Of a DNA stretch of 64,000 nucleotides, positions 4,161 to 57,150 are shown piece by piece (position 1 is the stretch's first letter; the number at the start of each line of letters is the position of its first letter). Source of the DNA: Octopus vulgaris (Eukaryota); assembly GCA_951406725.2 (NCBI GenBank), contig OX597818.1, positions 84,940,001 through 85,004,000 on the forward strand. Direction: 5' to 3'. The notes beneath the pieces were generated by a model, which did not search any database, had not been told where the DNA came from, and saw only the letters and a list, made by a program, of their open reading frames with translations. The translations under genes were made by a program, and so were the position numbers.

Positions 4161-4867
4161 CTGTTGCGTTTAAATATTTTAGAACCGTATTCACTAGTGA
4201 TGGGAAGTAAGAAACCGAACTGGATGCTAGAATTGCAGGTGTTGGCACAATAATGGGCCCGTTTCAGCATTCGGTTTTAGGTACATATGCTACACTCACT
4301 GTCTTCAGGTCGGTCCATTATACCTTAAATTTACTTAATTCACATGTTCATACGCAAAAATTATACATAAGACCTCTTATTTTTCTTATATTTGTTGGGT
4401 AATTCGACCTTGTTATGCAGTGACTTAGAATAGGGCGAGATTATCTTAGTTGAAACATATTTGGTCATAGATTTCATAACTTAGGATGAAGCACGGTAAC
4501 AACACAATTCTAAGATATGATCGAATTGCTGTGTCGAAGGCTATAAAGGGACAGCGGGTCAAGGTTTACAATAGATATGTGGTGTGGGCGAATAAGAGAG
4601 GTGGGTAGATAGATGGAGAGGAAATACGCAGTTTAATCGATACAGGTAGAGACAGATGGAAGGAGAGAGAGAGAGAGAGAGAAAATGAGTGGGAGCGAGA
4701 GCAATATAGCTTAAAAAGGAGAGAGAGATACAGAGAGAAAAGAGAGAGAAAAACATGAAGAAGTTCAAGTGTGAATCTTATCTGTAAGTGGTTGATAAGA
4801 AGAATTTAAGGACACCGTTAGAAGAAAGGAGTAGGAAGAGATGAGAAGAGCAGGAAGAAGAGGAAGA

Positions 4868-14974: not shown

Positions 14975-17040
14975 GTCCTCGGTAGGGGTCCAGACGCGTG
15001 CTGATGTCCACAGCTTTGTGCGCCGCGTCAGGTTGGGTGCGTTTTTCCGCGACTCACCACCCGCATCCAACGATGAGGACTGCTTCACTGACCTGGGCCG
15101 CCGACCATCCCTGTGGACGCCTGCCCCCGGCCAGTTCCTAGCAGTGGGTCTTTTCGCGGGCGCCTGTCAGCGTGCGTTGGAGCGGTTCAACTTCTCCAGG
15201 AGCCACCGCCGCATCAACATCTCCCCGGCCGAGCTCTCGGCTCTTCGTTCCCTCCAACAAAGGTGGAGCTGTGGTGGTGTGGCGCGCGGACCTCTACAGG
15301 GCCGAGGCGCTCCGCCAACTCAATGACACCTCCTTCTACTCCCTTTGTCCTCTAACCCCACGCGTAGCTACCAACATACGGTATTCTCTACTGTCCACGA
15401 CCTCATCTCGTCCTCCCGTCTCCCCCACACCGCATCCAACCTCATTGTGCGAACCCCACGCACCCCCACCATTTACCTCCTCCACAAAATCCACAAACCT
15501 AACAACCCTGGCCGCCCCATCATCTCCACCTGTAACTGCCCCACGGAGCTCATCTCAAAATACCTCGACCGTGTCCTTGCCCCCCTAGTGGCATCTCTTC
15601 CCTCCAACATCCACGACACCAACCATGCTCTCCGGCTTTTCAACTCTTTCTCCTTTCCTCCCGGCTCCTCCAAAATACTTTTTACAATGGACATCCAAAG
15701 CCTCTATGCCGTCATCCCTCACCACGAAGGACTGCGGGCACTTCAACACTTTCTCGACCTCCGCCCCAACCCCGAACCCGACACCTCCACACTCATTCGT
15801 CTGGCCGAACTTGTCCTTTCTCTTAACTGCTTCTCGTTCGCGGGCGAGTTCTACCAACAGTTCTCGGGAGTGGCCATGGGAACGCGAATGGGCCCCAACT
15901 ATGCGAACCTGTTCGTTGGCTATGTTGAGGCCCAAATATTCTCTAGTTTCACTGGTCCCACTCCCGAACTATACGGTCGTTACATTGAAGACATTATCGG
16001 TGCCACCTCACTCTCTCGTGAACATCTAGATTCCTTCCTCTCTTTCGTTCAATCCTTCCATCCTGCCCTCCACTTCACCTCCACTATCTCCAACACCTCT
16101 GTCTCCTACCTCGACATTTCGGTCAGCATTCATCACTCCACTCTTACCACCTCCATTCACTACAAACACACAGACTCACACTCATACCTAAACTTCTCTT
16201 CCTCCCACCCCAAACACACCAAGCTTTCCATCCCGTATTCCCAATTCCTCCGTCTACGCAGGCTCTGTAGTGACGACCATGACTTTGAGACTCAGTCTCA
16301 ACTCATGGCTCGCCACTTCATCCAACGTGGATACCCCCTCACCACTATCCACACCGCCCTTGCCAGAGCACGTTCCGTAGACCGTGCATCTGCTCTCTCC
16401 CCCCGAACCCGCCCTTTAGTCTCCCGCCTCCCATTTCCCTTCACTTACAACCCCACGACCCTACCTCTCCAACGCACCATTCTTCGAGCTTTCCGGCATC
16501 TCCAATCCGACCCGTCCACTTCACACCTCTTCCCAAACCGACCCCTCCCCTCCTTCAAACGAGCCCATAACCTACGAGACCTCTTGGTCCACAGCTCCTT
16601 CCCTGACCCTACCTCCCAACCTGGCTCGTTCCCCTGCTCCCGCCCACGTTGCTGCACTTGCCCTTACCTCTCCAACACCACCCTCCACACTGGCACCCAT
16701 CATCGACCCTATCACATCATCAACTCCTTCACCTGCACCTCCAGCAATATCATCTATTGCATCTCCTGCTCTCTCTGCCATTCCCTGTACATCGGACAAA
16801 CGGGACGCCGCTTGGCTGACCGGTTCGCGGAACACCTCCGTGACATCCGCCTTGCCAACGACACACCGGTCTCACGCCATTTCCGCTCCACCGGTCACTC
16901 CTTGCAACATCTGTCTGTGTTCGGATTGTCCTTGCACAGAGACCTTCCGGATTCCCGTTTGCGCCGTGAACAGAAATTAATCTTCTCTCTTCGCTCTTTC
17001 ACGCCATTTGGTCTCAACTCTCCCCCTTCTCATCTAACCT
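14975..17040 (+). pseudogene. Penelope-like RT/GIY-YIG endonuclease, disrupted
   Basis: NKGGAVVVW (DKG motif), KIHKPNNPGRPII, MDIQSLY, GVAMG, RYIED (YIDD altered), YLDI, CSRPRCCTC, NIIYCISC..YIGQTGRRLADRFAEH; frameshifts near 15255-15345; loss of the stop near 17035 extends the 814-aa ORF into low-complexity DNA. Confidence 0.92.
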
Positions 17041-17933
17041 CCCCCGACTCCTACTTCTCTTCAGTCCTTCATCTTTTCACCCTACTCTCTTTCCCTCTTC
17101 TTTCCTCTTTCCTCTTCCCTCTTCCCCTTCTCTCTTTCTCTCTGCTCCCTCACTCCCCTTCTCTCCCCTTCTTTCCCATCCCCCCTCCTCTCCCCTCCTT
17201 TCCCATCCCCTCCTCTTCTCCTCTCCTTCCTTATCCCCCTCTCCCTCCTCTCCCCCTTCCTCTCCCCCTTCCTCTCCCCCTTCCTCTCCTCTCCTTCCTT
17301 CTTCCCCCTCCCTCTTTCCTCTCCTCTCCTTTCTTCTTTCCCCCTCACCCCCTCATCTCATCTCTCCTCCCTCCTCCTCCCTCCTCCTCCTTTCTCCCCC
17401 TCATCTCCTCTCTCCCCTCTCCTTCCTCATCCCCTCTCCCCCTATCTCCTCTCTTCCCTCCTCCCTCCTCCCTCTCTCTTCTCTCCCCTTTCACTCTCCC
17501 CACAACCCCCACTCTACCCCAACCTGCAGCCGAACCCACACCCCTACCTCCCCCTTTCACTCTCCCCACAACCCCCACTTTACCCCAACCCACAGCCGAA
17601 CCCACAACCCACATGGGCTTTCCCCACCTCCCACCACACTACACTACACTACACCATACGACACTACATTACACTACACCATACGACATTACACATCACA
17701 TCATACATACACCCATCCAGACCTTTCATACGCACATACATACTCTCTCATACACACACGCACCCTTATGTTGGGGTGAGGTCATTTGACCTTGTTATCT
17801 CCCCTTCTATCCCTCTTGCGTCTAACGTCTGATCTCTGACTTCTGGCCGAAATCAGACCGCCATGTTGATTCGTTAGCTCCTGCACGCATCTTTTTTCTC
17901 TCCTTGTTTCTCTCCGTGTTTCTTTTCTGTGTA

Positions 17934-17971
17934 TCTTTCTGTTGAAGAGTGTAGGCTCGAAACGTAAAAGA
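17934..17971 (+). ncRNA. Minimal type I hammerhead-ribozyme-like motif with variant core
   Basis: TCTTT-CTGTTGA-A-GAG-tgtagg-CTC-GAAA-CGTA-AAAGA: stem I TCTTT/AAAGA, stem II GAG/CTC, palindromic ACGT in place of stem III; lies in the Penelope 3' terminus. Confidence 0.65.
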
Positions 17972-18479
17972 CTTGTTTTATTTCTATTCCTGAGCGCCAT
18001 ACTAATACAATTGTTTGTTTGTACTCCACCTGCCTTCGCCTTTTGTTAATTTTCGTAAAGCTTCCTGTTTTATATATACATATATATATATATATAAATA
18101 ATATATATATATTATTTAATTGAACACCACGCATCCATTTCCAAGTATGTGTATGCGTATATATATAAACACACACATATAAGACGGGCTTCTTTCAATT
18201 TCCATCTCCCAAATCCACTCACAAGGCTAAGCTAACCCCGTGGCCATAGTAGAAGACACTTGCCAATGGTGACATGCAGAAGGTCTGAACTCGTAACCTT
18301 GTGGTTTGGAAGCAAACATTTTACCACACATCCACGCCTGCACACACGCACACACACACAAACACACATAATTACATCGATACACACACGTGCAGAGCGA
18401 GACACATTATTTGCGTGTAAGTGCGTGTATGTATGAATGTATGTGTATACGTATGTATATATTAGTGTAGTTGTCTGTA

Positions 18480-19964: not shown

Positions 19965-21247
19965 CGAGGGGCGTTCAATAAGTAATGCCCCTGACCCACT
20001 TCCCATAGCAGTAGAGCAACGAAACTTGGCACAGTTATTAGTCTTTTTCTACATAGGAACCACCCAGAGTTACGCATTTCTCCCATTGTTTGATGCAGCT
20101 CTGGAGACCATTTTTGTAGAAGACCCCAGCTTGGTCCTCTAACCTGAACGTGACTTCAGAAATCAAGGCTGCATCATCTGGGAAACGCTTTCCTTTCAAA
20201 AACAACTTCATGACTGGGAAGAGGTGAAAATCAGAGGGTGCAAGGTCAGGAAAGTAGGGGGATGGGGGAGGAGTTAATAGCCATACGCCTGTGCTTCTGA
20301 TCTGGCGACAAGCGAGTTGTGGACCGGAGCGTTGTCCTGCAGGAGGAGGATGTCTTTGCTGATCTTGCCCCGCCTCTTGATTTTGATAACTTCTCTTAAT
20401 TTCCTCAAAAGTGAAGCATAATAGGCTCCTGCAATTGTGGTACCCTTTGCCAGGAAATCTGTCATCACTACTCCGTCCTGGTCCCAGAAGATTGTGAGCA
20501 TGACCTTGCCAGCGGAGGGCTGCACCCTTGCCTTCTTTGGAGGGGGTGAGTCACGGTGCTTCCACTGCATTGACTGGGCTTTGGTCTCTGGATCATCGTG
20601 ATGGACCCAGGTTTCATCCTGTGTAATCAGTCTTTTGAAAAATTTTGACTCATCTTCTTGGCACATCTCCAAATTCACCCTCGAGCACTCGACGCGTTCT
20701 TGCTTCTGGAAAGGCGTGAGCAACCTGGGAACCCATCTGGCAGACACCTTTTGCAGATGCAAATGGTCATGAATGATAGTTTCCACAGACCCGGTACTAA
20801 TCTTGACCTCATGGGCTATTTGGCGAATAATTATGCGTCGATCTTCCAAAATGGCAGCCTCAACTTGACGGACAGATGCCTCATCAATGGCAAAAGGGTC
20901 GATCAGATCTGGGAGCTGCTTCCACAGAGTTCCGACCATGTTTGAATTCACGATGCCAGCGTTTTACAAAGTCATATGATGGGGCATCATCACCATAAGT
21001 TACTTTCATTTCATCAAAAGTCTCACGTGGTGTGCGTCCTTTCAAATACAAAAAACGGATCACTGCTCGACACTCAACAGGCTCCATTTCACACTTGACT
21101 CGTTTCAAACACCTGTAAATCAGAAACCACAATTAATTCAGAGCTGTAATTTGCTCTATAGAGATATAAATAATTGCACATACAAAATTTCAGCTAGATC
21201 CAACAACTGCAAGTGGGTCAGAGGCATTACTTATTGAACGTCCCTCG
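19965..21247 (-). mobile_element. Full-length mariner element (1283 bp) with TA target duplication
   Basis: TA|cgaggggcgttcaataagtaatgcccctgacccactt ... aagtgggtcagaggcattacttattgaacgtccctcg|TA. Confidence 0.95.
20038..21087 (-). pseudogene. Mariner DD34D-type transposase with frameshifts and a stop
   Basis: MEPVECRAVIRFL HTH, WVPRLL, QDETW, QDNAPVH, PDLAPSDFHLF, GSYVEKD*; split over several frames. Confidence 0.92.
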
Positions 21248-24143: not shown

Positions 24144-27341
<3,198 letters not shown>

Positions 27342-49938: not shown

Positions 49939-50728
49939 GGGGACAGGAAAAGAGAGGAGGGGCAAGAAGTCAAACAGACAGATACATAAGGGGAGTAAGA
50001 AGAGCAAGAGAGAGAGGCGCATGGAGAGAGAGAGGAAGAAGAAATGAGAGAGGGCGAGCCAACAAGAGGGGGAGCTAACAAGAGGAAGAGGGAGAGCCAA
50101 CAAGAGAAAATAAGAGGGATAACCAACAAGAGGGAGAGGGAGAGTTCTGATACCTTGACTGAGACAAGGAAATAAATAGGAACACGGAGCAAGAGAGAGA
50201 GATGGGGAAAACAACAAGAGAGAGAGAAAGTGGTAGCCAGAAAGAGACAGGACCAAAGACAAAAAAAAGAGAGAAGGAAGGAGAGTGAAATGCACTAAAA
50301 CAGAGAGGAAGTTGACTTCCCCCTTCCTCACTTCTCCATAAAACAATATTCCCACCTGAATTCTGAGCAATTTGCTGTTTTCTCTATCTGTTTCACTATT
50401 TCTATTTCTCTCCCAATCTGCTTATGTCCATCTTCTGATGAAGGACTAACATATGAAGCGTCAGTAAACATTTCCTTTCTATTAAAGCGTAAATCTAATA
50501 CTTTATTGGTTAAACATTATTCCTTCTGAGTTGTCGTTTCATTGTTAATTGATTGTAAACATTAGAAGCACGTTGTATTCATAATGTGATACAATTATGT
50601 GCATATATGTTCGAGTGTGTGTGTGTGCGTGTGTGTATGTGTGTGAGTGTGTATGCATGTATATAATATAAACATATATGTCTATACACACACAGACATA
50701 TATATATGTATATATATATGCATATATA

Positions 50729-50784: not shown

Positions 50785-50950
50785 TAGCCAGTACACACAC
50801 TTTTTTTTCTCCCGTTTTTTTCTGCGTCCCTATCTGTAGAAGAGCGTAGGTTCGAAACGTAAAAGACTTTTTCTATTCCTGAGCGTTATACTAATACATC
50901 TGTTTGTTTTGTACACCACCTGTCTTCGTCTTTTCTTTTTTTCGTAAACT
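50785..50950 (+). mobile_element. Solo Penelope 3'-terminal fragment with hammerhead-like motif (50829-50867)
   Basis: ctgtagaagagcgtaggttcgaaacgtaaaagac...cctgagcg...caccacctgtcttcgtc matches 17880-18060. Confidence 0.85.
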
Positions 50951-53249: not shown

Positions 53250-53282
<33 letters not shown>

Positions 53283-53776
53283 ACGGGAAGCTTTATGAAA
53301 ATAAACGAAAGACGAAGGCAGGTGGAATACAAACTAAAAATTGTATTAGTATGGTGCTCAGGAATATAAATAAAACAAGTCTTTTACGTTTCGAGCCTAC
53401 GCTCTTCAACAGAAAGATACACAGAAAAGAAACACGGAAAGAAACAAGGAGAGAAAAAAAATGCGTGCAGAAGCTAGCGAATCAACATGGCGATCTGATT
53501 CCGGCCAGAAGTCAAAGATCAAACGTGAGACGCAAGAGCGAAAATAGGGGAGATAACAGGGTCAAATGACCAACGCCTCAACATAAGGGTGTGTGTGTGT
53601 ATGAGAGAGTATGTAATGCATATGAGAGGTCTGGACGTGTGTTTGTATGTATGATGTGATGTGTAATGTCGTATGGTGTAGTGTAGAGAGAGGAGATGAG
53701 GGGTGAGGGGATGGGGAGGAGGGGGAGGTAAGAGTGAGAGAGGGGAGAGGAGAGATGAGGGGGAGAGGGGAGGGGG
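53283..53776 (-). mobile_element. 5'-truncated Penelope 3' end with hammerhead-like motif (53380-53417)
   Basis: Reverse complement of ~17665-18070. Confidence 0.9.
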
Positions 53777-55410: not shown

Positions 55411-55508
55411 GCACTCTGATGAAGCTTCATGTTTCAGATCGGTTTTATTACCAAACAATATTGGCAATACCAAACAACATTGGAAGCAGAAACAGCTGTT
55501 AGATGGGA
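55411..55508 (+). ncRNA. Hammerhead-like motif with canonical core and long stem II insert, probably decayed
   Basis: CTGATGA (55416-55422) A GCTTC ... GAAGC A GAAAC AGCT GTT; stem I pairs poorly. Confidence 0.4.
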
Positions 55509-55769
55509 TGTAGTCTATCTGTATTGAATTAATAAATAATGATTGATGTAAGTTAATTGTTGTTCATCAATATTTCTCCATCTGTTTTCTTTAAATTATG
55601 ATTCTTGATAAACTCATGTTTATCTTTGTCGTTACCTGTAATTTATGAGCATGATATACTTGCATATGTATGCTCATGATTAAACATAGGTAATATACCG
55701 GTAGTGTAAAGGATACTTCTATCCCTTAGACGGTTATTTTAACCTCTAACTCAGCTAACCTATATATAT

Positions 55770-57125
55770 AGGGAGAATTCACACAAAAAAATGAAGACGA
55801 AGACAGGTGGTGTAGACAACAAACAGATGTATTAGGTTAACGCTCAGAAAGTGAAAAAGTCTTTAACGTTTCGAGCCTACGCTCTTCCACAGAAAGAAAC
55901 AAGGAGAGAAAATAAAGAATGTGTAGTGGCTAGCGATCTACCACGGCGAATGCCGGACAGAGAGGTCACACAAGAGAGCTAGGAAGAAGAAGAGATAACA
56001 GAGTAGTGGTGATCCCAAAACGAAGGTGTGCGTGCGTGTGTATAAGAGAGTATGTACGTGCGTGTGGAAGAGGGCTGGTGACCTTGATGTGTGCGTGTGT
56101 GTTTTGTAAGTGTGTGGATGTGGGGCTGGGAAGTGGTCAGTGCTAGTGTGTGCGTGGTGGTGTTATGTGATGTGATGTGGTGTTGTGTCGTGTATGGTGT
56201 AGTGATGTGTGGTGTGGTGTGATGGTGTTGGGAGGTGGGAGAGGTGAAAGTGGAGAAAACAAGGGTGGGGTGTGGGTTAGGCTGAGGGTGAGGGTACAGG
56301 TGGGGTATGTGGGAGTGTGTGTTAAGGATGGGGTGGGATGGAGTGGATAGGGAAGGTGGGTTGGTTTGTGTAGGGGTGAGGTGGGGTGGGATTACGATGG
56401 AGGGATAACGATGAAGGGGGAAGGGAGAAGGTGTATAGGAGTGAAGAGAAGTAGAAGTCGGAGCAAGAGAGGAGAGGTGGGTGGGAGGAAGTAGATGCAA
56501 GCGGGAGAGAGGAGAGGGGAGGACAGTTGAGCCCATGTGCCGCAAAGGAGCTCAGAGAGAAAGTTAATCCCTGTTCACGTCGCAAACGGAGTCCGCATGG
56601 CCCCTGTGCAAGGACAATCCAAACACAGGCAGGTGTTGCAAAGAGTGGCCGGTAGAGCGGAAATGGCGCGAGACCGGGGTTTCATTACCCAGTCGGATGT
56701 CTCGGAGGTGTTCCGCGAACCGGTCAGCCAGGCGGCGTTCCGTTTGCTCGATGTATAAATAAGGGCAGAGAGAACAGGAGATGCAGTAGATAACATTGGT
56801 AGAAGTGCAGGTGAAGGAGTCGGTGATGTGATAGGATCGATGATAGTGAGGAGGGTGGTGTGGGAGAGGTAAGGGCAAATGCGGCAGCGTGGGCGGGAGC
56901 AGGGGTACGAGCCAGGTTGGGAGGTTGGTTTAGGGAAGAAGCTGTGGACCAAGAGGTCTCGTCGGTTGTGGTCTCGTTTGAAGGAGGGGAGGGGTCGGTT
57001 AGGGAAGATGTGCGAAGTGGAGGGGTCGGACTGGAGTCACCGGAAGGTCGGTGAATGGTGCGTTGGAGAGGTAGGGTGGTGGGGTGGTAGGCGAGGGGAA
57101 ACGGGAGACGGCGGAGCGGGTGCGT
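55770..57125 (-). mobile_element. Second Penelope-like copy: GIY-YIG remnant, C-rich tract and terminus with hammerhead-like motif (55860-55897)
   Basis: PCSRPRCRICPY and FTCTSTNVIYCISCSLCPYLYIEQTERRLADRFAEH; homologous to 16400-18060. Confidence 0.9.
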
Positions 57126-57150
57126 AAGGAGAGAGCATATGCACATTTAC

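What the first reader, a model, noticed from the sequence alone, without database searches (positions are those of the whole stretch)
17934..17971. Penelope termini carry a minimal hammerhead motif with a fixed non-canonical core (CUG-U-N-GA)
Seen: four related motifs at 17934-17971(+), 50829-50867(+), 53380-53417(-) and 55860-55897(-), with consensus TCTTT CTGTNGA A GAG ygtagg CTC GAAA CGTW AAAGA. The 50829 copy has a decayed stem I and TTC for CTC. Core position 7 varies (T, A, T, G) and the cleavage-site base varies only between A and T, as hammerhead rules allow. Position 6, normally an invariant A, is T in all four. Established: Penelope-like elements carry minimal type I hammerheads in their pseudo-LTRs, with a palindrome (here ACGT) in place of stem III that favours dimeric folding. 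Inference: the A6U core was inherited through replicating elements rather than arising by decay, so it could be a variant ribozyme or a non-catalytic RT-recognition structure. I cannot tell whether this variant has been described.
Basis: partly seen in the sequence, partly recalled or inferred. Interest (0 to 1): 0.75.

Follow-up and report, generated by a model that had tools for sequence, protein, structure and literature searches.

The report
U6-core hammerhead of a Penelope lineage
A jumping-gene family with more than 16,000 copies in this animal genome carries a small self-cutting-RNA motif in which one normally fixed core letter is changed (A to U) throughout the lineage while the rest of the motif stays conserved, so it is likely a slowed-down ribozyme; cutting is untested.

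Summary
Confirmed and extended. The four motifs are real (0 in 100 shuffles). They are minimal type I hammerheads in the pseudo-LTR of a Neptune/Nematis-type Penelope-like element (RT plus GIY-YIG, 15327-17789). Genome-wide, position 6 is U in 16,253 of 16,881 pattern matches, in 74 of 78 copies picked by their tail alone and in 30 of 30 best-ORF copies. U6 runs through subfamilies of about 16% to 2% divergence. Among four flank-defined clusters, 51 of 146 flank columns vary but only 3 of 38 motif columns: N7, N17 and the outer stem I pair. A sister family keeps canonical A6 (4,756 vs 88). So U6 is inherited, not decay, and the fold looks constrained; that U6 itself is selected is not shown. 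U6 is predicted to zip the monomer shut. No cleavage evidence was obtained. I found natural A6C, not A6U, in print, but could not read Lunse 2017. The scan noted an A6C Penelope family in another genome. New variant of a known kind.

The parts
17934..17971 (+). Minimal type I hammerhead with U6 core: stem I 17934-38/17967-71, core CUGUUGA 17939-45 (U6 = 17942, N7 = 17943), bulged A 17946, stem II 17947-50/17955-58 with GUAG loop, G12-A14 17959-61, ACGU palindrome 17962-65, N17 17966; predicted cut 17966/17967
14991..18071 (+). 5'-truncated Penelope-like element ending in (TA)n about 105 nt after the predicted cut site
   Evidence: 86% protein identity over 14991-17018 to a long-ORF copy; 3' end read and compared
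15327..17789 (+). Open frame (820 codons, stop to stop): RT, C-X4-C-X2-C linker, GIY-YIG endonuclease with CxxC between the two motifs, then low-complexity sequence
   Evidence: PF00078 E 6e-7; weak TIGR01453 match E 0.007, below its cut-off; 771 homologues at E<=1e-30, some carrying PF01541
50774..50952 (+). Short 3'-end copy (A7 subfamily) holding the motif at 50829-50866, partly decayed
53251..53685 (-). 3'-end copy, 90% identical to the 17670-18100 end, holding the motif at 53380-53417
55761..57144 (-). Older truncated copy (G7/U17 subfamily) with a broken endonuclease fragment at 56517-57110 and the motif at 55860-55897

Best explanation
The motif is the minimal hammerhead in the pseudo-LTR of a Penelope-like retrotransposon lineage that has carried U instead of A at core position 6 through all its sampled subfamilies, and it is likely a throttled ribozyme that would cut slowly, only as a dimer and likely only with help from the element's protein. 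Shown: the position at both ends of long-ORF elements, family-wide U6, conservation of every other core and stem position while N7 and N17 vary, and an A6 sister family. Inferred: transcripts of a tandem copy hold two motifs about 4.5 kb apart that pair through the ACGU palindrome; U6 removes the A6 contacts and is predicted to zip U4-G5-U6 onto A15.1-C-G, hiding the palindrome. Slow cutting would suit the element, because copies end about 105 nt downstream of the cut site and most read through the motif, so the RNA must be uncut or re-ligated there when it is copied. Whether U6 was favoured or only tolerated is open.
For: U6 in 16,253 of 16,881 matches, 74 of 78 tail-selected copies, 30 of 30 best-ORF copies. 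Same-strand motif at both ends in 6 of 8 long-ORF copies, unit 4,467-4,529 nt. Among four flank-defined clusters 3 of 38 motif columns vary (N7, N17, outer stem I pair) against 51 of 146 flank columns, Fisher p 6e-4; chance of no change in the other 10 core columns 0.014. N7 and N17 are the positions that the hammerhead consensus leaves free (PMC7151607, introduction), and N7 takes all four bases, which a plain hairpin pairing U7 with A14 would not favour. One stem I pair is compensated, C-G in 9 rows and G-C in 7 of 19. Predicted G5-C15.2 pairing above 0.5 in 28 of 37 distinct U6 motifs against 1 of 33 A6 motifs of the same lineage. A natural A6C core still cuts, slowly and best with Mn2+ (PMC3088659 section 8; PMC7151607). 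A Poseidon hammerhead cuts only with its protein (PMC11167929, passages).
Against: No cleavage was observed. All single mutants of the CUGA region were low in activity in one deep scan (PMC9901934, passage), and canonical minimal hammerheads are already weak (PMC4209133), so a U6 form may be dead. Hammerhead mutants did not impair insertion in vitro and no RNA ends were found at the cut site for PAc (PMC11167929). U6 staying unchanged has a chance of about 0.65 at the flank rate, so it is not itself evidence of selection. Position 6 departs from T about twice as often as U4 (628 vs 309), and in the oldest subfamily C6 (13 of 100) and A6 (7 of 100) exceed the local decay rate (5.2 and 3.0 expected). 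The A6 sister has repeated U4C and G17 copies that group on the tree. 5' truncation points do not pile up at the cut site (4 of 30 loci). Flanks are T-rich and may mutate faster, and most rows of the constraint test were picked by the motif. The folding model also disfavours the dimer fold of the canonical sister, so its energies are a weak guide.
Confidence: 0.5

Rival explanations
1. A catalytically dead hammerhead kept as an RNA structure that the element's RT-endonuclease binds or uses to position the start of reverse transcription about 105 nt downstream.
For: Position-6 mutants are weak in published scans (PMC9901934, PMC3088659). Cleavage is not needed for insertion in vitro and the PAc protein acts on its hammerhead (PMC11167929). 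Naiads thrive without canonical hammerheads (PMC8557442). U4C and G17 sub-groups occur in the sister family. No pile-up of 5' ends at the cut site.
Against: G12, G8, G5, A9, A13, A14 and C3 are unchanged in all subfamily consensuses while about 35% of flank columns changed; the free positions are the ones a catalytic core leaves free. Binding could explain this only if the protein reads the folded core.
Confidence: 0.28
2. U6 is neutral in the ribonucleoprotein: it drifted to fixation in one master element and the ribozyme cuts as well as its A6 relatives.
For: Persistence of U6 is within chance (about 0.65); position 6 is more variable than U4; C6 and A6 are in excess in the oldest subfamily.
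Against: A6 is present in 56 of 56 published family representatives (PMC4209133, Fig. S3 text) and in 98% of the sister family; A6C lowers the Mg2+ rate strongly (PMC7151607).
Confidence: 0.12
3. The 38-nt block is kept for a DNA-level role, such as part of the internal promoter of the pseudo-LTR, and its hammerhead ancestry no longer matters.
For: Pseudo-LTRs hold promoters (PMC6765202, passage); stem and loop II letters are frozen rather than covarying inside the U6 lineage.
Against: The conserved block ends at the stem I arms, a stem I pair is compensated against the sisters, and the variable positions match hammerhead rules.
Confidence: 0.07
4. Independent post-insertion decay of A6, or an assembly artefact.
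For: None found.
Against: 96% T6 genome-wide, T6 in the youngest copies; no other letter listed at 17942 in contigs of 8 runs carrying four organism labels.
Confidence: 0.01

Closest known systems
Minimal hammerheads (min-HHR) in pseudo-LTRs of metazoan Penelope-like elements (Cervera and De la Pena 2014, PMC4209133; parts 1-2 of 4 of the text and parts 1-2 of 3 of the supplement PDF read)
   Same: Type I layout, no helix III, palindromic 15.2-16.2, extra nucleotide between A9 and G10.1, G10.1-C11.1 pair, short stem I in U-rich context, place in both pseudo-LTRs, thousands of solo truncated copies.
   Different: Core is CUG-U-N-GA. All 56 representatives in Fig. S3 have A6; the core variant named in the text I read is U3-A8. 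Their descriptor fixes the core, so such a family would be missed.
Bcep176 C6 hammerhead (Perreault 2011, PMC3088659, section 8 and passages; Naghdi 2020, PMC7151607, parts 1-2 of 4)
   Same: Natural change at core position 6.
   Different: A6C in one phage locus, with measured slow, Mn2+-favoured cleavage; here A6U in a minimal hammerhead, in more than 16,000 copies of an autonomous retroelement, activity unmeasured.
Poseidon PAc hammerhead of Anolis (Frangieh 2024, PMC11167929, passages)
   Same: Minimal pseudo-LTR hammerhead in an EN+ Penelope-like element, with reverse transcription starting inside the element RNA.
   Different: Poseidon clade, hammerhead overlapping the ORF start, shown to be protein-assisted; no position-6 change is mentioned in the passages read.
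Neptune/Nematis EN+ Penelope-like elements (Craig 2021, PMC8557442, introduction and passages)
   Same: RT followed by a Zn-finger-like linker and C-terminal GIY-YIG; partial tandems; (TA)n targets.
   Different: I did not build an RT tree with reference elements, so Neptune versus Nematis is not decided.

Membership tests
Penelope-like element, EN+ | RT followed by C-terminal GIY-YIG endonuclease with two cysteines between the motifs | tested here: met
   PF00078; translation shows CxxC between the GIY- and YIG-like motifs and two downstream histidines; Pfam did not call the endonuclease in this copy, TIGR01453 only weakly
Penelope-like element, EN+ | Pseudo-LTRs from partial head-to-tail tandems | tested here: met
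   6 of 8 long-ORF copies repeat the 3' end upstream, unit about 4.5 kb
Neptune/Nematis clades | CX2-5CxxC linker between RT and endonuclease; microsatellite targets | tested here: met
   C-X4-C-X2-C in the ORF; 3' ends run into (TA)n
Neptune clade | RT phylogeny with reference Neptune elements | not tested
   No named reference proteins were in hand
Minimal type I hammerhead | Stems I and II, bulge after A9, G10.1-C11.1, palindromic 15.2-16.2, NUH site | tested here: met
Minimal type I hammerhead | Core C3 U4 G5 A6 N7 G8 A9 | tested here: not met
   Position 6 is U in 96.3% of 16,881 matches; the other core positions are canonical
Minimal type I hammerhead | Site-specific self-cleavage as a dimer | not testable with these tools
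   Only assembled contigs were served; truncation points gave no signal
Rfam hammerhead families | Covariance-model match | tested here: inconclusive
   No hammerhead match at E<=10 for 17900-18000, but none either for the canonical A6 sister, so Rfam does not see this minimal form

The most novel reading that the evidence does not exclude
U6 is a selected safety catch: one base both removes a core contact and zips the monomer so that the dimerisation palindrome is hidden, N7 retunes the lock from subfamily to subfamily, and the element's protein releases it or simply binds the locked form. An autonomous retroelement lineage would then have turned its hammerhead into a protein-gated switch or a pseudo-ribozyme, and core-fixed searches would have missed a whole class of position-6 variants in Penelope-like elements.
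Probability: 0.25. Interest if true: 0.75.

Novelty: new variant of a known kind. Interest (0 to 1): 0.52.

Why it matters
What the hammerheads of Penelope-like elements do is still open: they are almost universal in the group, yet weak in vitro and not needed for insertion in the one reconstituted system. Here one genome holds a very successful lineage with a core change expected to cripple cleavage, an A6 sister family, and 188 natural A6 copies inside the U6 lineage. These are matched natural pairs for asking whether cutting, folding or protein binding is what selection keeps. The family is also invisible to searches that fix CUGANGA, so published counts of minimal hammerheads may be too low.

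Tried and rejected
Rfam on the whole window (best 150 of 333 rows seen) gave microsatellite-driven miRNA-type matches and no hammerhead; local scans were blank for both the U6 motif and the A6 sister. A second apparent U6 family was dropped: my descriptor found no stem I and no RT match in its loci. No ORF was found for the 3-nt-loop A6 sister, whose sampled copies are short, so the relationship rests on about 170 nt of flanks and the direction A to U rests on parsimony with published families, not on a rooted RT tree. RNA evidence: no RNA holder listed on record; runs guessed to be RNA were contigs only and cannot show ends. Truncation test, hand-counted from the first 100 rows of each listing: 4 of 30 young U6 loci start at 0 to +2 from the cut site and 6 upstream; 3 of 36 sister loci at the site and 2 upstream; no pile-up, weak test, biased by TA microhomology. 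Folding z-scores of the window motifs are unremarkable (-1.4 to +0.2). The seven-subfamily test (49 of 133 vs 0 of 34) split groups partly by N7 and N17, so I rely on the four flank-defined clusters. Lunse 2017 (about 150,000 short-stem-III variants, as I recall) and Arkhipova 2017 are not held; either may list U6 cores. The A6U search gave one twister paper, the CUGUUGA search two unrelated papers (listings only); searches gave no report of the variant in listings. In the Craig 2021 supplement I saw only 4 rows.

Full report
Observation. Stem II is four pairs with a GUAG loop. The window is part of a 2.8-Gb animal genome; I did not test which species.

Context. The motif at 17934-17971 lies about 900 nt after the endonuclease region of an open frame at 15327-17789. 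The frame encodes RT (PF00078), a C-X4-C-X2-C linker and a GIY-YIG-type domain. Craig 2021 (PMC8557442, introduction) gives that linker as the mark of the Neptune and Nematis clades. The element ends in (TA)n about 105 nt after the predicted cut site. The other three motifs are in truncated 3' ends of the same family. Of 8 long-ORF copies re-fetched with wider flanks, 6 carry the motif on the same strand at both ends, 4,467-4,529 nt apart, and the upstream repeat reaches well upstream of the motif. This is the pseudo-LTR position described by Cervera and De la Pena 2014 (PMC4209133).

Position 6 across the genome. A 27-letter pattern with positions 6 and 7 free has 16,881 exact matches and 0 for the reversed control. 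Of these 188 have A6 and 440 have C6 or G6 (86 C and 14 G in the first 100, hand count), leaving 16,253 T6 (96.3%). To avoid picking copies by the motif, I took the first 100 of 20,661 matches to a tail pattern. 98 were recovered, 78 still held the motif, and 74 of the 78 had T6 (3 A, 1 C). All 30 loci fetched for the best protein matches had T6. Contigs of 8 public runs with four organism labels list variants at N7 but none at position 6; these tables are not complete (T>G at N7 is not listed), so this is supporting only.

History. A tree on flanks alone (209 rows, FastTree, many open forks) shows a ladder of subfamilies from about 16% to 2% divergence. N7 runs U, C/G, A, C, U and N17 moves between A and U, while U6 stays. 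A6 copies, which I oversampled on purpose, are spread through the age classes and carry the N7 of their class, as back-mutations would. In the oldest class, however, C6 (13 of 100) and A6 (7 of 100) exceed the decay rate of other T columns (5.2 and 3.0 per 100; p 0.002 and 0.03), and genome-wide position 6 departs from T twice as often as U4 (628 vs 309). Sequence context could cause this, or position 6 was loosely held among source elements. A sister family with the same stem II and a 3-nt loop has A6 in 4,756 matches and another base in 88; it differs from the U6 lineage at 40-54% of flank columns. An unrelated A6 family is also common. Loose patterns give 27,187 U6-type and 24,210 A6-type matches against about 1,700-1,800 for reversed controls. 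All 56 published family representatives have A6 (PMC4209133, Fig. S3 text). A6 is therefore the likely ancestral state; this is parsimony, not a rooted tree.

Constraint. Among four clusters defined on flank columns only, 51 of 146 flank columns differ between consensuses, against 3 of 38 motif columns (Fisher p 6e-4). The three are N7, N17 and the outermost stem I base, whose change adds a fifth pair. The chance that the other ten core columns all stay fixed at the flank rate is 0.014. Caveats: most rows were picked by the motif, flanks are T-rich, and columns are not independent. The tail-selected set shows the same picture: N7 and N17 vary, the other core positions differ in at most 5 of 78 copies. 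Covariation is limited to one stem I pair between the U6 lineage and its sisters (8 cells of 171, in effect one event, on 20 hand-picked rows). That U6 itself never changed has a chance near 0.65, so U6 is shown to be tolerated, not shown to be favoured.

Mechanism. Folding predicts that U6 lets U4-G5-U6 pair with A15.1-C-G, hiding the ACGU palindrome: pairing probability above 0.5 in 28 of 37 distinct U6 motifs and 1 of 33 A6 motifs of the same lineage. In natural pairs differing only at position 6, the double-hammerhead fold costs 5.7 against 0.9 kcal/mol with U7, 4.3 against 3.1 with G7 and 1.3 against 0.9 with A7. The same model gives 11.3 for the canonical sister, so these energies are only a lead. 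Published work says position-6 changes slow cleavage: A6C below 0.1 per minute (PMC3088659), strongly reduced in Mg2+ but little in Mn2+ (PMC7151607), and low activity for single mutants of the CUGA turn (PMC9901934). A Poseidon hammerhead cuts only with its protein, and its mutants still insert in vitro (PMC11167929). Since copies end about 105 nt after the cut site and 78 of 98 tail-selected copies read through the motif, their template was uncut or re-ligated there (inference). A slow, dimer- and protein-dependent ribozyme fits these facts best (0.5). A dead fold kept for protein binding is the main rival (0.28); repeated U4C and G17 copies in the sister family and the lack of 5' ends at the cut site (4 of 30) favour it.

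Comparison and novelty. It works like a Penelope minimal hammerhead and meets every structural feature except A6, so I file it as a variant, not as a canonical member. Searches showed no report of a U6 core in such elements, but Lunse 2017, the most relevant survey, was not available, so novelty in print is not secure. Earlier notes of this scan describe an A6C core in a Penelope family of another genome; I did not check them, and they are not independent support. Interest 0.52: a clean, large natural experiment on an open question, without a demonstrated function.

Noticed in passing
L125, L161, L351-L379 (motif near locus centre): The A6 sister family (stem II with 3-nt loop, at least 4,756 copies) occurs as short copies, many starting about 85 nt upstream of the core, with no ORF found; it may be a non-autonomous SINE-like derivative.
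   Followed up: partly
L015, L044, L106, L117, L178, L191 (U4C); L150, L174, L175, L177, L178 (G17): Groups of sister-family copies share other core-breaking changes, U4C or G17, suggesting that such variants were copied.
   Followed up: partly
window 17943 and homologous sites: N7 changes at least three times between flank-defined clusters, more than the average flank column; unexplained.
   Followed up: partly
L123:1500 and L124-L148: A second very common minimal hammerhead family with canonical A6, a longer stem II and a 5-bp stem I, often in inverted pairs; parent element not identified.
   Followed up: no
L102-L113, position about 5000: A ~125-nt repeat with hammerhead core words but no type I stem I and a second CUGAUGA-like word upstream; it may be the permuted hammerhead that other notes on this genome describe.
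   Followed up: no
L187:1500(-): A U6-lineage copy carrying the sister family's loop II, with a sister copy about 200 nt away; possibly gene conversion or template switching.
   Followed up: no
window 24295-27193(+): Broken frames that look like a non-LTR retrotransposon RT region; no Pfam match for the two pieces scanned.
   Followed up: no
window 20274-20963(-): Mariner-type transposase fragment, PF01359 E 6e-24.
   Followed up: no
window 4262-4308(-), 50436-50470(+), 55415-55450(+): Isolated CUGANGA words with partial hammerhead-like context; none passed my descriptor.
   Followed up: partly
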